Shown here piece by piece: positions 1,322 to 8,247 of a stretch of DNA of 8,247 nt. Origin of the DNA: a virus. Its lineage: Duplodnaviria > Heunggongvirae > Uroviricota > Caudoviricetes. The stretch lies in IMG/VR virus record IMGVR_UViG_2534681834_000008. One strand, given 5' to 3'. The translations under genes were made by a program, and so were the position numbers. The notes beneath the pieces were generated by a model, which saw only the letters and a list, made by a program, of their open reading frames with translations, made no database searches and was not told where the DNA came from. The stretch's first letter is position 1, and the number at the start of each line of letters is the position of its first letter.

Positions 1322-1344
1322 CTGATGAATCCCCTAATGATTTT
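1322..1344. repeat. IS10 outside-end terminal inverted repeat
   Basis: CTGATGAATCCCCTAATGATTTT; by hand alignment about 17 of 23 positions match the reverse complement of the inside end. Confidence 0.8.
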
Positions 1345-1367
1345 TATCAAAATCATTAAGTTAAGGT

Positions 1368-1436
1368 AGATACACATCTTGTCATATGATCAAATGGTTT
1401 CGCCAAAAATCAATAATCAGACAACAAAATGTGCGA
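1368..1436 (-). ncRNA. IS10 antisense RNA-OUT (approximate coordinates), complementary to the 5' end of the transposase mRNA
   Basis: Placed from recalled IS10 biology: pOUT starts near IS10 bp 115 and transcribes about 69 nt towards the outside end, overlapping RNA-IN and the transposase start codon at 1429. Not derived independently from the sequence; the ends are approximate. Confidence 0.45.
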
Positions 1437-2637
1437 ACTCGATATTTTACACGACTCTCTTTACCAATTCTGCCCCGAATTACACTTAAAACGACTCAAC
1501 AGCTTAACGTTGGCTTGCCACGCCTTACTTGACTGTAAAACTCTCACTCTTACCGAACTTGGCCGTAACCTGCCAACCAAAGCGAGAACAAAACATAACA
1601 TCAAACGAATCGACCGATTGTTAGGTAATCGTCACCTCCACAAAGAGCGACTCGCTGTATACCGTTGGCATGCTAGCTTTATCTGTTCGGGCAATACGAT
1701 GCCCATTGTACTTGTTGACTGGTCTGATATCCGTGAGCAAAAACGGCTTATGGTATTGCGAGCTTCAGTCGCACTACACGGTCGTTCTGTTACTCTTTAT
1801 GAGAAAGCGTTCCCGCTTTCAGAGCAATGTTCAAAGAAAGCTCATGACCAATTTCTAGCCGACCTTGCGAGCATTCTACCGAGTAACACCACACCGCTCA
1901 TTGTCAGTGATGCTGGCTTTAAAGTGCCATGGTATAAATCCGTTGAGAAGCTGGGTTGGTACTGGTTAAGTCGAGTAAGAGGAAAAGTACAATATGCAGA
2001 CCTAGGAGCGGAAAACTGGAAACCTATCAGCAACTTACATGATATGTCATCTAGTCACTCAAAGACTTTAGGCTATAAGAGGCTGACTAAAAGCAATCCA
2101 ATCTCATGCCAAATTCTATTGTATAAATCTCGCTCTAAAGGCCGAAAAAATCAGCGCTCGACACGGACTCATTGTCACCACCCGTCACCTAAAATCTACT
2201 CAGCGTCGGCAAAGGAGCCATGGATTCTAGCAACTAACTTACCTGTTGAAATTCGAACACCCAAACAACTTGTTAATATCTATTCGAAGCGAATGCAGAT
2301 TGAAGAAACCTTCCGAGACTTGAAAAGTCCTGCCTACGGACTAGGCCTACGCCATAGCCGAACGAGCAGCTCAGAGCGTTTTGATATCATGCTGCTAATC
2401 GCCCTGATGCTTCAACTAACATGTTGGCTTGCGGGCGTTCATGCTCAGAAACAAGGTTGGGACAAGCACTTCCAGGCTAACACAGTCAGAAATCGAAACG
2501 TACTCTCAACAGTTCGCTTAGGCATGGAAGTTTTGCGGCATTCTGGCTACACAATAACAAGGGAAGACTCACTCGTGGCTGCAACCCTGCTTACTCAAAA
2601 TCTATTCACACATGGTTACGTTTTGGGGAAATTATGA
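1429..2637 (+). CDS. tnp: IS10 transposase (402 aa, apparently intact)
   Basis: ORF from the track beginning MCELDILHDSLYQFCPELHLKRLNSLTLACHALLDCKTLTLTELGRNLPTKARTKHNIKRIDRLLGNRHL, which I recognise as the IS10/Tn10 transposase. ATG at 1429 is 107 bp inside the outside end, the canonical position. Confidence 0.95.
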   Translation: MCELDILHDSLYQFCPELHLKRLNSLTLACHALLDCKTLTLTELGRNLPTKARTKHNIKRIDRLLGNRHLHKERLAVYRWHASFICSGNTMPIVLVDWSDIREQKRLMVLRASVALHGRSVTLYEKAFPLSEQCSKKAHDQFLADLASILPSNTTPLIVSDAGFKVPWYKSVEKLGWYWLSRVRGKVQYADLGAENWKPISNLHDMSSSHSKTLGYKRLTKSNPISCQILLYKSRSKGRKNQRSTRTHCHHPSPKIYSASAKEPWILATNLPVEIRTPKQLVNIYSKRMQIEETFRDLKSPAYGLGLRHSRTSSSERFDIMLLIALMLQLTCWLAGVHAQKQGWDKHFQANTVRNRNVLSTVRLGMEVLRHSGYTITREDSLVAATLLTQNLFTHGYVLGKL

Positions 2638-2650
2638 GGGGATCTCTCAG
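2628..2650. repeat. IS10 inside-end terminal inverted repeat (contains a GATC Dam site)
   Basis: Plus-strand GAAATTATGAGGGGATCTCTCAG, reverse complement CTGAGAGATCCCCTCATAATTTC; GATC at 2641..2644. Confidence 0.8.
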
Positions 2651-2659
2651 TGCTAAGTC
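2651..2659. repeat. IS10 target-site duplication, right copy (TGCTAAGTC)
   Basis: Identical to 1313..1321 and immediately abuts the IS10 inside end. Confidence 0.92.
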
Positions 2660-2846: not shown

Positions 2847-3086
2847 CTATTTTCTGCGTATGGCACGTAACTTCTTAATGTGTTCTGCCGTTTCGATCTC
2901 TTCTGCTATCCGATCTGCATCAGCTTTATTCACAGGTTCAAAGTCATGATTAAAGCGGAACATGCTGGCGATACATGTTCTGCCTTTTCGGATGTAGTGA
3001 ACTTTGTTGTGGGTAGAACGCAGGATTTTGCAGGGAGTGCCGTGGTGGTCGACGTACCAGGTGTTAGGAAAAATGATTCTGAACAT
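2847..3086 (-). CDS. Hypothetical small protein (79 aa) in the prophage b-region
   Basis: ORF from the track; minus-strand ATG at 3086 preceded by GAGGTG with about 5 nt spacing. Scattered His/Cys residues (HHGTPC ... H ... C) might bind metal. Sits just upstream of xis, where lambda carries its ea genes. Function not recognised. Confidence 0.6.
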   Translation of the reverse strand: MFRIIFPNTWYVDHHGTPCKILRSTHNKVHYIRKGRTCIASMFRFNHDFEPVNKADADRIAEEIETAEHIKKLRAIRRK

Positions 3087-3133
3087 TTTTACACCTCAGT
3101 TGGACGATGTTGAAATTTGCTGCTTTGAGGCCA

Positions 3134-3352
3134 TCACAATCCCCATTGTTTGTTCTTAAGTTCGATCTCCTCCTGGCAACTTGCACAAGTCCGACAACCC
3201 TGAACGACCAGGCGTCTTCGCTCATCTATCGGATCGCCACACTCACAACAATGAGTGGCAGATACAGTCTGGTAGTTCAGACGACGCATTTTTATTGCTG
3301 TATTGCGCTGTAATTCTTCGATTTCTGATGCTGAATCAATGATGTCTGCCAT
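3134..3352 (-). CDS. TraR/DksA-family C4 zinc-finger protein (72 aa)
   Basis: ORF from the track with the paired Cys motif CCEC ...(about 17 aa)... CRTCASC, at the small size typical of TraR-like proteins. Lambda orf73 in the same region is a recalled TraR homolog. Confidence 0.78.
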   Translation of the reverse strand: MADIIDSASEIEELQRNTAIKMRRLNYQTVSATHCCECGDPIDERRRLVVQGCRTCASCQEEIELKNKQWGL

Positions 3353-3401
3353 CTTCCATTAATCCCTGAATTGTTGGTTAATACGCTTGAGGGTGAATGC
3401 G

Positions 3402-3428
3402 AATAATAAAAAAGGAGCCTGTAGCTCC
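3402..3428 (-). terminator. Candidate intrinsic terminator for leftward transcription
   Basis: Inverted repeat GGAGC (3414..3418) / GCTCC (3424..3428) with a 5-nt loop. On the minus-strand RNA it is followed by UUUUUU AUUAUU (plus-strand A-run 3408..3413). Lies 22 nt downstream of the stop of the 3451..3732 ORF. The stem is short (5 bp), so this is a weak call. Confidence 0.4.
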
Positions 3429-3742: not shown

Positions 3743-4300
3743 TCATGCAGCCTCCCGACGGGCAAGAATCCTTGAGCCGAACGCCATCAACTCTCCACGA
3801 TCAACGGTCGTAAAGTGGCAGTGTGTACGGGGGTATGGGTGCCAGATAATGAGCATCGAGCCTTTATTATTTCCACTGACGGGTTTCTCAGTGAGTGGGT
3901 TAATAAATGCCAGTCGTCCTGCCGTGATGAATCTGACCTCACTGGCGGTTTGTATCGCTTCATGAAACCATCCGACAGATGTGTCAGCAGGCAATAACAT
4001 TACACATCCCACACTACTGAATTTGTTTTCAGTGGCTGCCTTTTTCACAAAAGGGGAAATATTGCTGTATGGTGGATTCAACCAGACATAACCAGAGGCA
4101 TATCCCATTGCTTCAGGCCATGAAGTGGTTAATGTGTTCTGCTCCTGTGAGATAAAAAGCCGACATAGTCGGTTTTTTTCGCTGGCGGCAGCATCAAGTT
4201 GAAAAACGAACTCTGCATTAAGCGCAGCAAAAATCTCTGGTGGTGTGCGCCAGCTGTCGCGATGTTCGGCAGGAGTATTGCTTCCGGTGAAATCAGTCAT
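3743..4300 (-). CDS. Phage-type DNA N6-adenine methyltransferase (185 aa), apparently orphan
   Basis: ORF from the track with the catalytic NPPY motif in the context YVWLNPPYSNISPF. Its size and layout fit the small phage Dam family rather than host Dam. The start ATG at 4300..4298 overlaps the stop of the upstream small ORF (ATGACTGA). No adjacent restriction endonuclease candidate is visible. Confidence 0.85.
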   Translation of the reverse strand: MTDFTGSNTPAEHRDSWRTPPEIFAALNAEFVFQLDAAASEKNRLCRLFISQEQNTLTTSWPEAMGYASGYVWLNPPYSNISPFVKKAATENKFSSVGCVMLLPADTSVGWFHEAIQTASEVRFITAGRLAFINPLTEKPVSGNNKGSMLIIWHPYPRTHCHFTTVDRGELMAFGSRILARREAA

Positions 4301-4460
4301 ACAGCCCCCGTTTATTATTTATCTCCTCAGCCAGCCGCTGTGCTTTCAGGGGATTTCGGATAACAGAAAGGCCGGGAAATATCCAGCCTCGCTTTGTAAC
4401 GGAGTAGACGAAAGTGATCGTGCCTACCCGGATATTATCGTGAGGATGCTTCATCGCCAT
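4293..4460 (-). CDS. Small ORF (55 aa) between exo and the methyltransferase; not in the supplied ORF track
   Basis: Hand translation of the minus strand gives [55 protein letters not shown], then stop TGA at 4295..4293. The second ATG (4454..4452) overlaps the exo stop as ATGA, and the ORF end overlaps the methyltransferase start, so the three genes look translationally coupled. The position immediately after exo matches lambda orf60a, which I recall as similar, but I could not verify this. Confidence 0.5.
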
Positions 4461-5131
4461 TGCTCCCCAAATACAAAACCAATTTCAGCCAGTGCCTCGT
4501 CCATTTTTTCGATGAACTCCGGCACCATCTCGTCAAAACTCGCCATGTACTTTTCATCCCGCTCAACCACGACATAATGCAGGCCTTCACGCTTCATACG
4601 CGGGTCATAGTTGGCAAAGTACCAGGCATCTTTTCGCGTCACCCACATGCTGTACTGCACCTGGGCCATGTAAGCCGACTTTATGGCCTCGAAACCACCG
4701 AGCCGGAACTTCATGAAATCCCGGGAGGTAAACGGGCATTTCAGCTCAAGGCCATTGCCGTCACTGCATAAACCATCGGGAGAGCAGGCGGTGCGCATAC
4801 TTTCGTCGCGATAGATGATCGGGGATTCAATAACATTTACGCCGGAAGTGAACTCAAACAGGGTTCTGGCGTCGTTCTCGTACTGTTTTCCCCAGGCCAG
4901 CGCTTTAGCGTTAACTTCCAGAGCCACACCGGTGCAAACCTCAGCCAGCAGGGTGTGGAAGTAGGACATTTTCATGTCAGGCCACTTCTTTCCTGATCGG
5001 GGCTTTGCTATCACGTTGTGAACTTCTGAAGCGGTGATGACGCCGAGCCGTAATTTGTGCCATGCATCATCCCCCTGTTCGACAGCTCTCACGTCGATCC
5101 CGGTACGCTGCAGGATAATGTCCGGTGTCAT
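4451..5131 (-). CDS. exo: Lambda-type 5'-3' exonuclease (Red alpha), 226 aa
   Basis: ORF from the track beginning [65 protein letters not shown] and ending GFVFGEQWR, recognised as lambda Exo with only a few substitutions (from memory). The start ATG overlaps the bet stop as ATGA. Confidence 0.96.
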
Positions 5132-5913
5132 GCTGCCACCTTCTGCTCAGTGGCTTTCTGTTTCAGGAATCCAAGAGCTTTCACTGCTTCGGCCTGTGTC
5201 AGTTCTGACGATGCGCGAATGTCGCGGCGAAATATCTGGGAACAGAGCGGCAATAAGTCGTCATCCCATGTTTTATCCAGGGCGATCAGCAGAGTGTTAA
5301 TCTCCTGCATGGTTTCATCGTTAACCGGAGTGATGTCGCGTTCTGGCTGACGTTCTGCAGTGTATGCAGTATTTTCGACAATGCGCTCGGCTTCATCCTT
5401 GTCATAGATACCAGCAAATCCGAAGGCCAGACGGGCACACTGAATCATGGCTTTATGCCGTAACATCCGTTTGGGATGCGACTGCCACGGCCCCGTGATT
5501 TCTCTGCCTTCGCGGGTTTTGAATGGTTCGCGGCGGCATTCATCCATCCATTCGGTAACGCAGATCGGATGATTACGGTCCTTGCGGTAAATCCGGCATG
5601 TACAGGATTCATTGTCCTGCTCAAAGTCCATGCCATCAAACTGCTGGTTTTCATTGATGATGCGGGACCAGCCATCAACGCCCACCACCGGAACAATGCC
5701 GTTCTGCTTATCAGGGAAGGCGTAAATTTCTTTCGTCCACGGATTAAGGCCGTACTGGTTGGCGACGATCAACAATGCGATGAACTGCGCATCGCTGGCA
5801 TCACCTTTAAATGCCGTCTGGCGAAGAGTGGTGATCAGTTCCTGTGGGTCGACAGAATCCATGCCGACACGTTCAGCCAGCTTCCCTGCCAGCGTTGCGA
5901 GTGCTGTACTCAT
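5128..5913 (-). CDS. bet: Single-strand annealing recombinase (Red beta), 261 aa
   Basis: ORF from the track beginning [66 protein letters not shown], recognised as lambda Bet (from memory). The 4-bp overlap with exo is the classic lambda arrangement. Confidence 0.96.
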
Positions 5914-5918
5914 CCGTT

Positions 5919-6215
5919 TTATACCTCTGAATCAATATCAAACTGGTGGTGAGCAATGGTTTCAACCATGTACCGGATGTGTTCTGCCATGCGCTCCTGA
6001 AACTCAACATCGTCATCAAACGCACGGGTAATGGCTTTTTTGCTGGCCCCGCAGCGTTGCAAATGATCGATACAGAGTGATTCAAACAGGTGCTGTGGAA
6101 GACCTTTTTCCATGTCGTCTGCCAGTTCTGCCTCTTTCTCTTCACGGGCGATCTGCTGGTAGTGACGTGCCCAGCTCTGAGCCTCAAGACGATCCTGAAT
6201 GTAATAAGCGTTCAT
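5919..6215 (-). CDS. gam: Host RecBCD nuclease inhibitor Gam, short form (98 aa)
   Basis: ORF from the track beginning [60 protein letters not shown] and ending [10 protein letters not shown], recognised as lambda GamS. AGGAG lies about 7 nt upstream of the ATG. An in-frame TAA at 6272..6270 is 19 codons upstream, so no longer N-terminally extended form can be made here. Confidence 0.94.
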
Positions 6216-6291
6216 GGCTGAACTCCTGAAAATGGCTGTGAAAATATCGCCCGCGAAATGCCAGGCTGATTAGGAAAACAGGAAAGAGGGG

Positions 6292-6702
6292 TTAGTGATT
6301 CAGGCCGTTACCGCGTCCGTCGAGAAAAACTTCTACGAGCAAATCACGGGTATAAGTGCGCTCGATGCCGCGATGCAGATAAAGCCGTCCGCGTAAATTA
6401 GCTGATGCAGTCCAGGTACCATCTTTGTGTTTGACCAGCATTCCTGGCATGACCGCACCGCGATTAACGGTCTGCGTTCCGTAATGTTGATGAACCATAA
6501 AAACTCCTGCCCGTAAGCTGGGCTGCTGAACATATAAAGACTTCTGCGCGTATTCAGGCGGTGGATGGCCGCCGGTTGTCATAACTAAGCCGCCTCGTTG
6601 AAGCGACTGAGGTATGAAGTGTTGAGTTGATTTCAGCTGGTCACACCGACGTTCACGCGTCCGCTTCACCCCTCGCACTCCCCGGAGCCTGCTGAAATTC
6701 AA
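6292..6702 (-). CDS. Hypothetical protein at the position lambda uses for kil (136 aa from the first ATG; about 96 aa if started at the internal ATG at 6582)
   Basis: ORF from the track. The C-terminal part (MPGMLVKHKDGTWTASANLRGRLYLHRGIERTYTRDLLVEVFLDGRGNGLNH) looks protein-like. The N-terminal 40 codons of the longest form are Arg-rich and low complexity, so the true start is uncertain. I could not match it to lambda Kil from memory. Confidence 0.5.
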   Translation of the reverse strand: MNFSRLRGVRGVKRTRERRCDQLKSTQHFIPQSLQRGGLVMTTGGHPPPEYAQKSLYVQQPSLRAGVFMVHQHYGTQTVNRGAVMPGMLVKHKDGTWTASANLRGRLYLHRGIERTYTRDLLVEVFLDGRGNGLNH

Positions 6703-6783
6703 GCTGCGGATCTAAGCGGTCATCGCAACGGTGAATCAGGTGATTGCCGTATCGTTGTGTTGTTGCGACATGGTGATAATAGC

Positions 6784-6819
6784 TATTGCTATTGATGATA
6801 TCAATACTTATTGCTATTG
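6784..6819. repeat. Direct repeats flanking a palindrome in the intergenic region (possible operator or protein-binding site)
   Basis: TATTGCTATTG occurs at 6784..6794 and again at 6809..6819, each itself a tandem of ATTGCT-like units. Between them is the 8-bp perfect palindrome TGATATCA at 6796..6803. A second small inverted repeat ATCGC-ATA-GCGAT lies at 6878..6890. Function unknown. Confidence 0.3.
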
Positions 6820-6944
6820 CTAGATGTGTTTTGATATTAAATATTTGATAGCAAAAAGAATTAATTTTGTGACTTGCATCGCATAGCGATAACTGAAGCG
6901 GGGTTGTGGTGGTTTTTTGAACGGTGTGTGTGATGAGGGGAGGC

Positions 6945-6982
6945 AAAAGAAAACCCGGCACGGTGGCCGGGACGTTTTATTT
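6945..6982 (-). terminator. Intrinsic terminator (bidirectional in appearance) directly downstream of the DUF4411-like gene
   Basis: GC-rich hairpin CCCGGC (6954..6959) / GCCGGG (6966..6971) with a 6-nt loop. On the minus-strand RNA it is followed by UUUUCUUUU (plus-strand AAAAGAAAA at 6945..6953). On the plus strand it is followed by ACGTTTTATTT (6972..6982). The hairpin begins 5 nt after the stop codon at 6977..6979. Confidence 0.65.
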
Positions 6983-7489
6983 CAAAGAAAAATTATGACT
7001 AGCGTATCTTGGAAGAAATTCATATAGTGTTAATGTCTTAACGCCGTGAGAAGCAGCAGCATCCGGGATCATTATTCTTTTTTTAGGTTTGCCACCGGAT
7101 GGTTTCTCATGGGTAATAATAGTATATCCATGTGTCATCGCATGGGCTATTAAAAAAGCATCTGCTTTTTCATGGCTTGCAAAATCAAACTTTGCCTTTT
7201 CGGTAACATCTAATTTAGTTGACCAATTTATTAACTTTGCATAATTTTCTATTGAACTATGCTCATCTTCGAAGAATGATGATGGTAACTCTTCTTTAAT
7301 CCATTTACACAATGGATCATCTTTTGCACATAGTTCTTTTTTTACAGCATTAATGCTATAAATCAGACCATTAATGTGTAAAGCGAGAAGAAAATCCCAA
7401 AATATTTTGCAATAATTGAAGTTATATGCAAAGTTTTTTGCCTCTATGAAGACATTACTATCAATTAAGAATTTTCCATTATGAATCAT
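6977..7489 (-). CDS. DUF4411-like protein, predicted PIN-like nuclease fold (170 aa)
   Basis: ORF from the track. N-terminal FLIDSNVFIEA resembles the first acidic motif of PIN-like domains, followed by FWDFL, G-IYSI-V-KEL, ADAFLIAHA and a C-terminal IMIPDAAASHGV, which together match my recollection of the DUF4411 family pattern. The start ATG at 7489..7487 overlaps the stop of the upstream peptidase gene as ATGA. The gene is visibly AT-rich compared with the Red genes. Confidence 0.7.
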   Translation of the reverse strand: MIHNGKFLIDSNVFIEAKNFAYNFNYCKIFWDFLLALHINGLIYSINAVKKELCAKDDPLCKWIKEELPSSFFEDEHSSIENYAKLINWSTKLDVTEKAKFDFASHEKADAFLIAHAMTHGYTIITHEKPSGGKPKKRIMIPDAAASHGVKTLTLYEFLPRYASHNFSLK

Positions 7490-8247
7490 AGAGATTCTCG
7501 TTTTTTATAAAATTCAACAACTGTATCTGCTTTTACATTTAGCAGTACGCCTGCTTCCCTTAATGGTAATTGTTGAGACATTGCTTTGGAAATTATTATA
7601 TTCGTAAGTTTTGGACTGTTACGAACAGGTAATGTGTTAAAGAAAGAACCACCATTGGATTCTTTTTTGGGCTTATTGTAAGCTTGATCTTTAATTATCT
7701 CCAAAGTGTTTCTTTCTATCAAATCTAATTGTAACGCTTTGATTGCACAAGCGAAATCACTAACCTTAAATAACTTAGAAACCTCTTTTACTCGATAATA
7801 ATTATTATCGCTGGATGCATTAAGCCAGAAAGATTTGAAGAGATTATCAGGCATTAAGATTTCAGCAGCAACTTTATTACAAAAAGATTCTATGTTTTTT
7901 TCTGTGTCCCACCCAGAGACTCCATCGACTCCAAGCCAAAGATGAGCCACCTCATGAAATAATGTAAATACCTGCGCAGATAACGCGTCCGAGCTATTTA
8001 CAAAAATGATCGGAGCAACGCTATCAGATATACAGAAACCACGAAACTCTCGCGTGTCAAGTTTTCTTTTATTATTATTACCCACAACACCATTCTTGAA
8101 AACTAATACGCCAGTGTCTTCTATTAGTTTTGCCACTTTAGAAAAATAGCTCTCAAAAGTGACATTTTTTATCTCTTTTTGTATATCAAAATGTATTGTG
8201 TTTGCTATGTCTGTAGCAACAACCTTATAATTTAATTTTCTATTAAA
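7486..8247 (-). CDS. ImmA/IrrE-family HExxH metallopeptidase domain protein, 5'-partial (gene continues past the window end)
   Basis: Contains FTLFHEVAHLWLG, the HExxH zinc-binding signature in the context typical of ImmA/IrrE proteins. The track ORF (7486..8136) starts at a GTG, but hand translation of the minus strand from 8247 shows 37 more in-frame codons with no stop (FNRKLNYKVVATDIANTIHFDIQKEIKNVTFESYFSK...). That is unlikely by chance in such AT-rich DNA, so the true start, and probably an N-terminal domain, lies outside the window. Confidence 0.75.
   Translation of the reverse strand, partial: FNRKLNYKVVATDIANTIHFDIQKEIKNVTFESYFSKVAKLIEDTGVLVFKNGVVGNNNKRKLDTREFRGFCISDSVAPIIFVNSSDALSAQVFTLFHEVAHLWLGVDGVSGWDTEKNIESFCNKVAAEILMPDNLFKSFWLNASSDNNYYRVKEVSKLFKVSDFACAIKALQLDLIERNTLEIIKDQAYNKPKKESNGGSFFNTLPVRNSPKLTNIIISKAMSQQLPLREAGVLLNVKADTVVEFYKKRESL

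What the first reader, a model, noticed from the sequence alone, without database searches (positions are those of the whole stretch)
6292..6702. Unidentified gene at the lambda kil position immediately upstream of gam
In lambda the gene just upstream of gam is kil, a small host-toxic FtsZ inhibitor. Here that position holds a different ORF of 96 to 136 aa, depending on the start, which I could not match to anything from memory. It is followed by a 76-nt gap before gam. Genes at this position in lambdoid phages are often host-interaction or host-toxic functions.
Basis: inference. Interest (0 to 1): 0.4.

Follow-up and report, generated by a model that had tools for sequence, protein, structure and literature searches.

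The report
KilR-type phage cell-division inhibitor gene
The "unidentified" gene upstream of gam is an ordinary, already-annotated 68-residue relative of KilR, the Rac-prophage protein that blocks bacterial cell division, sitting in the slot that lambda fills with its unrelated kil gene.

Summary
The ORF is real: 6292-6702 on the minus strand, 136 aa from a TTG or 96 aa from an ATG, with a 76-nt gap before gam. Only its last 68 codons are the gene (6292-6498, ATG at 6498, AGGAG Shine-Dalgarno at 6504-6508). All 20 relatives from other enterobacterial genera with readable upstream DNA start at this same Met. Thirteen of them have in-frame stops 1-26 codons upstream. Two near-identical phages carry indels that break the upstream extension but leave the 68 codons intact. 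Median dN/dS is 0.11.

The protein is not unknown. RefSeq names the identical product "phage encoded cell division inhibitor protein" (WP_000233576.1). It matches PHROG 294 at 1e-38, the family that also holds Rac KilR and phi80 Kil. It is 36% identical to K-12 KilR (E 9e-13). It has no similarity to lambda Kil.

The model is a small SH3-like beta-barrel with floppy ends, as published for KilR. The gene always heads the recombination module, whether that is gam-bet-exo or ydaE-recE-recT.

"Unidentified" and "96-136 aa" do not. This is a known kind and of low interest. Toxicity and FtsZ targeting are untested for this 68-aa subfamily.

The parts
6292..6498 (-). kil (KilR-family) coding sequence, 68 aa plus stop: MVHQHYGTQTVNRGAVMPGMLVKHKDGTWTASANLRGRLYLHRGIERTYTRDLLVEVFLDGRGNGLNH
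   Evidence: Identical to WP_000233576.1, 'phage encoded cell division inhibitor protein', in E. coli CV839-06. PHROG 294 at E 1e-38. NCBIfam NF008465 at E 2e-17. 36% identical to Rac KilR, E 9e-13. Median dN/dS 0.11. Same Met start in the 20 related loci with readable upstream DNA.
6504..6508 (-). Shine-Dalgarno AGGAG, 5 nt upstream of the ATG at 6498
   Evidence: Read directly from the sequence. GGAG/GAGG/GGGG-type sites sit at the same position in the related loci.
6499..6702 (-). It is part of the 5' leader, not of the protein.
   Evidence: 13 of 20 relatives have in-frame stops 1-26 codons upstream of the conserved ATG. Phages PhiR30_1 and Turner carry indels that change the frame here while the 68-aa CDS stays intact. 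No family hit is specific to this part.
6216..6291 (-). 76-nt kil-gam spacer, shared with lambda-kil-type phages
   Evidence: In one search, 163 of 180 matching phage records fall in the 95-99% identity band. Every listed partial match, in records annotated with lambda-type Kil or in Stx phages, covers only query 1-83 (window 6216-6298). So the cassette boundary lies at the kil stop codon.
5919..6215 (-). gam, the downstream neighbour and first gene of the Red module
   Evidence: Pfam Gam PF06064, E 2e-63.
6499..6769 (-). Predicted untranslated leader of about 270 nt, from the pL-like start to kil
   Evidence: Inferred from the promoter-like site. No Rfam family. Fold no more stable than shuffles, z -0.48.
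6776..6804 (-). Promoter-like site (-35 TTGATA, 17-nt spacer, -10 TATTAT); candidate pL
   Evidence: 10 of 12 matches; the count is not significant on its own. It lies inside the operator-like repeat shared with the cI-cro region.
6770..6818 (.). Operator-like block (candidate oL), containing the perfect 17-bp palindrome TATTGATGATATCAATA at 6790-6806
   Evidence: 49-nt direct repeat, 76% identical to the cI-cro intergenic region of the same prophage (L004 11138-11186). The motif TTGCTATTG is enriched, 14 matches against 4.7 expected. Palindrome located. This is the most variable segment among otherwise 97-99% identical phages.
6954..6971 (.). Bidirectional intrinsic terminator closing the upstream ImmA/IrrE-DUF4411 cassette

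Best explanation
The window is the early-left arm of a lambdoid prophage integrated next to icd. Position 6292-6498 (minus strand) encodes a 68-residue member of the KilR family, whose founding member is the 73-aa KilR of the Rac prophage. It replaces lambda kil, to which it is unrelated, in exactly the same slot, and the exchange boundary lies at the stop codon. What is shown: it is a real gene under purifying selection, and it starts at the ATG at 6498. It is homologous to KilR. It has the architecture published for KilR: a small all-beta SH3-like barrel, about 7 floppy N-terminal residues and a short floppy C-terminal tail. It keeps the KilR position at the head of the phage recombination module. 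What is inferred from homology: when the prophage is derepressed, the protein is made early, probably from a CI-controlled pL-like promoter about 270 nt upstream, as the first ORF of that transcript. It would then bind or disturb FtsZ, and possibly the MreB system, through the barrel plus the C-terminal tail. That would block Z-ring formation, so that cells filament and stop dividing while the phage recombines and replicates. It would be toxic if over-expressed.
Against: No member of this 68-aa subfamily was found to have been tested experimentally. Identity to the tested protein is only 36%, and the score is below NCBIfam's curated cut-off (63 against 92 bits). The C-terminal tail after the conserved VFL/VYL is 9 residues (DGRGNGLNH) against 12 in KilR. 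In KilR, shortening the tail to 9 residues removed the cell-rounding (MreB) effect, and further shortening reduced toxicity. So potency and target range could differ. The pL assignment rests on consensus and repeat matches only. No transcription start is known.
Confidence: 0.82

Rival explanations
1. The gene makes a longer protein of 96 aa (ATG 6582) or 136 aa (TTG 6702), whose N-terminal part adds a function. This is how the first reader and several automatic gene callers read it.
For: The frame is open for 71 codons upstream in the window and in phages 4A7, PhiR47_2 and PhiR26_1. Metagenome and phage gene calls of 83-116 aa and 125-128 aa exist. N-terminal fusions to KilR remain active (mCherry-KilR).
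Against: The extension is not conserved outside close E. coli relatives. Thirteen of 20 loci have stops 1-26 codons upstream, many with no alternative start. It is frame-shifted in PhiR30_1 and Turner while the CDS is intact. The ATG at 6582 has only a GAGG 10 nt away, inside a hairpin arm. No family profile extends meaningfully into it: the PHROG match starts at residue 60 of 136.
Confidence: 0.04
2. It is a KilR-fold protein whose activity has diverged. With its shorter tail it may inhibit division only, act on another host target, or be weakly toxic or non-toxic and serve another early-phage role such as supporting recombination.
For: The tail is 9 aa against 12. In KilR, tail length sets toxicity and the MreB effect. 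Identity to KilR is only 36% and falls below NCBIfam's subfamily cut-off. The gene is tightly linked to recombination modules of two unrelated types. P22 kil matters for growth when anti-RecBCD is missing (PMC3961180).
Against: The 9-aa tail is the norm across the family, in phi80, HK639, phiES15 and HK225, and Rac KilR is the outlier. The core residues H5, G7, R13, V16, P18, G19, S32, A33, Y40, V57, L59 and G63 are invariant between the subfamilies.
Confidence: 0.12
3. The ORF is a chance open frame in non-coding DNA and no protein is made.
For: There is no hit in the local Pfam copy, and the upstream two thirds of the ORF do look non-coding.
Against: dN/dS is 0.11. There is a conserved start with a Shine-Dalgarno sequence. 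133 homologues have E <= 1e-3. The model is confidently folded. The local Pfam copy has no model for Rac KilR either, so the Pfam miss is uninformative.
Confidence: 0.01

Closest known systems
KilR (Kil) of the E. coli K-12 Rac prophage, 73 aa, b1352. It inhibits FtsZ-ring formation and disturbs MreB (PMC12482147).
   Same: They are homologous: 36% identity, E 9e-13, and the same PHROG 294. They have similar sizes. Both have a beta-barrel core with short disordered N- and C-termini. Both sit at the head of the recombination genes in the leftward early operon of a lambdoid prophage, after a long untranslated leader.
   Different: The window protein has 68 aa against 73. Its C-terminal tail is 9 aa (DGRGNGLNH) against 12 (GRDGLPVKAESW). 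It is followed by gam-bet-exo rather than ydaE-racC-recE-recT. Its leader has no DNA similarity to the Rac leader or the KilS sRNA region. It scores below the NCBIfam NF008465 cut-off. It has not been tested experimentally.
The identical or near-identical 68-aa 'Kil' of Escherichia phages 4A7, 1W, PhiR47_2 and PhiR26_1 (100% aa), and of HK225 and mEp237 (84-85%)
   Same: These are the same gene in the same slot, with the same leader in the 100%-identical group.
   Different: Nothing of substance differs. Annotations vary, from 'Kil' and 'hypothetical protein' to an erroneous 'membrane carboxypeptidase'. Some records call longer or misplaced ORFs.
Lambda Kil, 47 aa, Pfam Lambda_Kil PF06301, a ZipA-dependent FtsZ inhibitor (PMC3961180)
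   Same: It occupies the same genomic slot immediately upstream of gam. The spacer down to the stop codon is shared. The physiological outcome, a division block, is the same if the KilR homology holds.
   Different: There is no sequence similarity. Lambda Kil falls in different PHROGs (3924, 2461, 2055). KilR toxicity does not depend on ZipA, unlike that of lambda Kil. This is an analogous replacement, not an orthologue.
phi80 Kil (PHI80_42, 69 aa)
   Same: It belongs to the same PHROG 294, is 41% identical, and has the same 9-aa tail pattern, LDGHGNPLTH.
   Different: In phi80 the gene lies downstream of an N gene and its nutL and tL1 terminators. In the window no N-like ORF lies between the candidate pL and kil.

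Membership tests
KilR family (PHROG 294; NCBIfam NF008465/PRK11354; Pfam PF27398) | Significant match to the family profile over its full length | tested here: met
   PHROG 294 matches at E 1.3e-37, residues 1-68 on profile positions 13-80 of 83. Rac KilR and phi80 Kil hit the same PHROG. All homologues carry the precomputed PF27398.
KilR family (PHROG 294; NCBIfam NF008465/PRK11354; Pfam PF27398) | Score above NCBIfam's curated cut-off for NF008465 (92 bits), that is, membership of the narrow Rac-KilR subfamily | tested here: not met
   63.1 bits, E 1.8e-17. It is a homologue, but from a sister subfamily rather than the Rac-type subfamily proper.
KilR family (PHROG 294; NCBIfam NF008465/PRK11354; Pfam PF27398) | Direct pairwise similarity to the experimentally characterised Rac KilR | tested here: met
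   BLASTP gives 22 of 61 identical (36%) and 57% positives, E 9e-13. Thirteen columns are invariant across seven divergent members.
KilR family (PHROG 294; NCBIfam NF008465/PRK11354; Pfam PF27398) | A protein of about 70 aa with a central beta-sheet core and short unstructured N- and C-termini (PMC12482147) | tested here: met
KilR family (PHROG 294; NCBIfam NF008465/PRK11354; Pfam PF27398) | A C-terminal unstructured tail long enough for toxicity (12 aa in KilR; the effect depends on length) | tested here: inconclusive
   A tail is present but has 9 aa. In KilR a 9-aa tail kept toxicity and filamentation but lost cell rounding. Whether that rule carries over to this subfamily is unknown.
KilR family (PHROG 294; NCBIfam NF008465/PRK11354; Pfam PF27398) | Location in the leftward early operon of a lambdoid phage, directly upstream of the recombination genes | tested here: met
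   In the window the order is kil-gam-bet-exo. In related loci it is kil-ydaE-recE(-recT) or kil-...-gam-bet-exo. In Rac it is kilR-ydaE-racC-recE-recT.
KilR family (PHROG 294; NCBIfam NF008465/PRK11354; Pfam PF27398) | Toxic on expression; blocks Z-ring formation; toxicity suppressed by extra FtsZ | not testable with these tools
   This needs expression experiments. No published test of a 68-aa subfamily member was found.
Lambda Kil (Pfam PF06301 Lambda_Kil) | Match to the Lambda_Kil profile or to the lambda Kil sequence | tested here: not met
   There is no Pfam hit at E <= 1, whereas lambda Kil itself scores 2e-20. BLASTP finds no alignment at E <= 100.
Lambda Kil (Pfam PF06301 Lambda_Kil) | Position immediately upstream of gam | tested here: met
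   There is a 76-nt spacer to gam. The spacer is shared at 95-99% with lambda-kil-type phages up to the stop codon.

The most novel reading that the evidence does not exclude
The 68-aa, short-tailed KilR subfamily could be functionally distinct from Rac KilR. For example, it could be a pure division inhibitor without the MreB arm, or it could have a different partner. In this N-less phage group it may also be the very first product of the CI-controlled leftward transcript, preceded by a 270-nt leader that might hold a KilS-like sRNA or an attenuator (hairpin at about 6588-6608). If so, control of the division block in these phages would differ from both lambda and Rac.
Probability: 0.15. Interest if true: 0.35.

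Novelty: already known. Interest (0 to 1): 0.12.

Why it matters
It matters little beyond correct annotation. The gene shows a clean non-orthologous replacement: two unrelated small division inhibitors, lambda Kil and a KilR relative, are swapped in one slot with the junction at the stop codon. Gene callers also often over-extend this ORF, to 83-136 aa. The 68-aa subfamily is widespread in enterobacterial prophages and is the commoner tail-length form. It would therefore be a sensible second test case for the KilR tail-length model. Nothing here is surprising to a phage biologist.

Tried and rejected
- **Pfam:** the scan of the 136-aa and 68-aa versions found no family. This is uninformative, because the local copy has no KilR model; Rac KilR itself gets no hit.
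- **PADLOC:** no hit for Kil or for the DUF4411 protein.
- **PDB:** the sequence-profile search found no solved relative. BFVD gave only one uncharacterised Pantoea phage protein.
- **Rfam:** the whole window gave only IS10 RNA-OUT and nothing in the kil leader.
- **Leader fold:** no more stable than shuffles, z -0.48.
- **Leader against Rac:** no DNA similarity to the Rac kilR leader or the KilS region.
- **Leader against HK639:** no DNA similarity to the HK639 pL/putL-like antiterminator region. I therefore dropped the ideas of a KilS homologue or a put-type RNA as unsupported.
- **Leaders of the 20 related loci:** they are mosaic, with no family-wide conserved element.
- **Other ORFs in 6499-6976:** the 102-aa ORF at 6653-6961 (minus strand) and the 66-aa ORF at 6333-6533 (minus strand) have no family hits.
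- **Tail length:** I considered reading the 9-aa tail as a 'natural delta-3C'. I rejected it as a firm claim, because 9 aa is the family norm and Rac KilR is the outlier.

Full report
**Observation.** The window carries the left arm of a lambdoid prophage, read on the minus strand. The order is:
- int (1-1143)
- an IS10 insertion
- small early genes
- an N6-adenine methyltransferase (3743-4300)
- exo (4451-5131)
- bet (5128-5913)
- gam (5919-6215)
- the ORF of the finding (6292-6702)

The ORF is 136 aa from a TTG at 6702. An in-frame ATG at 6582 gives 96 aa, and another at 6498 gives 68 aa. The stop is 76 nt from the gam ATG. Gam is confirmed by Pfam PF06064 at E 2e-63.

**Where the gene really starts.** Four independent lines put the start at the ATG at 6498.
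- A canonical AGGAG lies 5 nt upstream of it, at 6504-6508.
- In the 20 loci from other genera with readable upstream DNA (Citrobacter, Leclercia, Klebsiella, Kluyvera, Siccibacter, Raoultella and others), the homologue begins at the same Met with a GGAG-like site in front. In 13 of them an in-frame stop lies only 1-26 codons upstream, often with no alternative start.
- Every full-length homologue aligns from M[VI]xQHYGT.
- Among phages that are 97-99% identical over this stretch, PhiR30_1 and Turner carry indels that change the reading frame of the upstream extension. Their 68-aa sequences are unchanged or differ by one residue.

The 68 codons are under strong purifying selection. Nei-Gojobori dN/dS has a median of 0.11 and a range of 0.02-0.28 over 97 pairs, with synonymous sites near saturation. 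The 96- and 136-aa readings are therefore over-extensions into the 5' leader. Many automatic calls in public data make the same error.

**What it is.** The identical 68-aa product is WP_000233576.1, 'phage encoded cell division inhibitor protein'. It is annotated in E. coli CV839-06, whose prophage next to icd is 100% identical to the window apart from the IS10. Phage 4A7 calls it 'Kil protein for bacterial septation inhibition'.

Several searches agree on the family.
- It matches PHROG 294 at E 1e-38.
- It matches NCBIfam NF008465 (PRK11354, 'FtsZ inhibitor protein') at E 1.8e-17 over the whole profile. The score of 63 bits is below the curated 92-bit cut-off.
- BLASTP against KilR of the K-12 Rac prophage gives 36% identity over 61 residues, E 9e-13.
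- Rac KilR and phi80 Kil hit the same PHROG 294.

Lambda Kil is a different family. It falls in other PHROGs and in Pfam Lambda_Kil. It has no detectable similarity to the window protein. The empty Pfam result reflects a library copy with no KilR model. Rac KilR also gets no hit, while the precomputed annotation of all homologues lists PF27398.

**Context.** The homologue always heads the phage recombination module, whichever type that is. It is followed by gam-bet-exo in the window and in L006. In L018, L022 and L023 the lambda-type genes lie further downstream. It is followed by ydaE-recE(-recT) in at least nine other loci, which is the Rac order kilR-ydaE-racC-recE-recT.

Similarity to phages that carry lambda-type kil stops at window 6298. 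In one search, every listed partial match covers only query 1-83. Both kil types end ...CAC TAA. The two unrelated kil genes are therefore alternative cassettes, with one junction at the stop codon.

**How it most likely works.** The mechanism is inferred from KilR (PMC12482147; PMC3961180). On derepression the small protein accumulates in the cytoplasm and prevents Z-ring formation, so cells filament. In KilR this is relieved by extra FtsZ, does not depend on ZipA, and needs the C-terminal tail.

The window protein's tail after the conserved VFL is 9 residues against 12 in KilR. In KilR a 9-residue tail kept toxicity but lost the MreB cell-rounding effect. However, 9 residues is the norm across the family, in phi80, HK639, phiES15 and HK225. 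I therefore treat a 'division-only' phenotype as a possibility, not a prediction.

I found no experiment on any member of the 68-aa subfamily. Function is thus inferred from 36% homology, shared fold and synteny.

**Expression.** This part is inferred. Between the bidirectional terminator at 6954-6971, which ends the upstream ImmA/IrrE-DUF4411 pair, and kil lie 455 nt without a credible ORF. Window 6770-6818 is a 49-nt, 76%-identical repeat of the cI-cro intergenic region of the same prophage. The motif TTGCTATTG is enriched and clusters at those two places. A perfect 17-bp palindrome, TATTGATGATATCAATA (6790-6806), has a one-mismatch counterpart in the cI-cro region. A minus-strand promoter-like site (TTGATA, 17 nt, TATTAT; 6804-6776) lies within it.

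Among otherwise near-identical phages, this is the segment that diverges, at 67-95% identity. That is expected of immunity-specific operators. In phage Turner a CI-like repressor gene is the next annotated gene upstream, with no accessory cassette in between.

The simplest reading is that this is oL/pL. The ImmA/IrrE-DUF4411 pair would then sit in the rexAB position, and kil would be the first ORF of the leftward early transcript after a leader of about 270 nt. No N-like gene is present. The leader shows no Rfam family, no excess folding, and no similarity to the Rac KilS region or to the HK639 put-like RNA.

**Verdict.** The 'unidentified' label is wrong, and the guess of a host-toxic function at the kil slot is right by homology. 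This is an already-annotated member of a known family and is of low interest.

Noticed in passing
window 1323-2651 (RNA-OUT at 1367-1436, minus strand; transposase ORF 1429-2637, plus strand): An IS10 copy is inserted inside the prophage excisionase gene, about 47-56 nt after its start. It is flanked by a GCTNAG-type target duplication (GTGCTAAGT). The otherwise identical prophage in E. coli CV839-06 lacks it. The insertion should impair excision and lock the prophage in.
   Followed up: partly
window 6770-6818 and 6776-6804 (minus strand); L004 11138-11186: There is a candidate oL/pL directly upstream of kil. It consists of a 49-nt repeat of the cI-cro intergenic region, a perfect 17-bp palindrome TATTGATGATATCAATA, and a promoter-like site. 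No N-like gene follows, so kil would be the first ORF of the leftward operon.
   Followed up: partly
window 6977-7489 and 7486-8247+ (minus strand); full gene in L004 9148-10287: A DUF4411 (PIN-like) protein and a 379-aa ImmA/IrrE metallopeptidase, which gives weak PADLOC hits to CapP and RmrA, sit as a two-gene cassette between cI and the candidate oL. This is the rexAB position, and the cassette is closed by a bidirectional terminator at 6954-6971. Related phages carry other cassettes in the same slot: ASCH plus a hypothetical protein in 4A7, GevA in PhiR47_2, and none in Turner. It is probably a prophage accessory or defence hot spot.
   Followed up: partly
window 6557-6618 (minus strand), 59-120 nt upstream of the kil ATG: A 62-nt leader segment is 97% identical in phage HK225 and partly conserved in one gut MAG (L024), although the Kil proteins are only 74-85% identical. 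It is absent from the other 19 loci compared. It contains a 9-bp hairpin (AGUCGCUUC-AAC-GAGGCGGCU) followed by UAGUUAU, and it also contains the ATG of the 96-aa reading. It could be an attenuator or a recombination patch. This is unexplained.
   Followed up: partly
L003 (phage D2, OM475427) 3075-3420: Phage D2 keeps the window-type leader and the kil Shine-Dalgarno and ATG. The ATG is fused to the 3' end of lambda cIII (…RKLRDGWK…), followed by lambda kil. It is a hybrid whose junction sits exactly at the kil start codon. The record has Ns at this point.
   Followed up: partly
window 6292-6298 / 6216-6298: Similarity to phages carrying lambda-type kil stops within the last two codons of kil. 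Both genes end His-stop (CAC TAA). The junction of the alternative kil cassettes is therefore precise.
   Followed up: yes
proteins P0072, P0103, P0109, P0119: Some database homologues carry an internal double frameshift: a run of 8-30 residues is replaced and the frame is then restored. These are either sequencing errors or decaying copies of a toxic gene in prophages.
   Followed up: no
phage records OM475428 and OM475430: The same kil region is annotated 'membrane carboxypeptidase' in phages 1W and 3W. PhiR30_1 places its 'Kil' CDS about 170 nt away from the conserved ORF. These appear to be annotation errors in public records.
   Followed up: no
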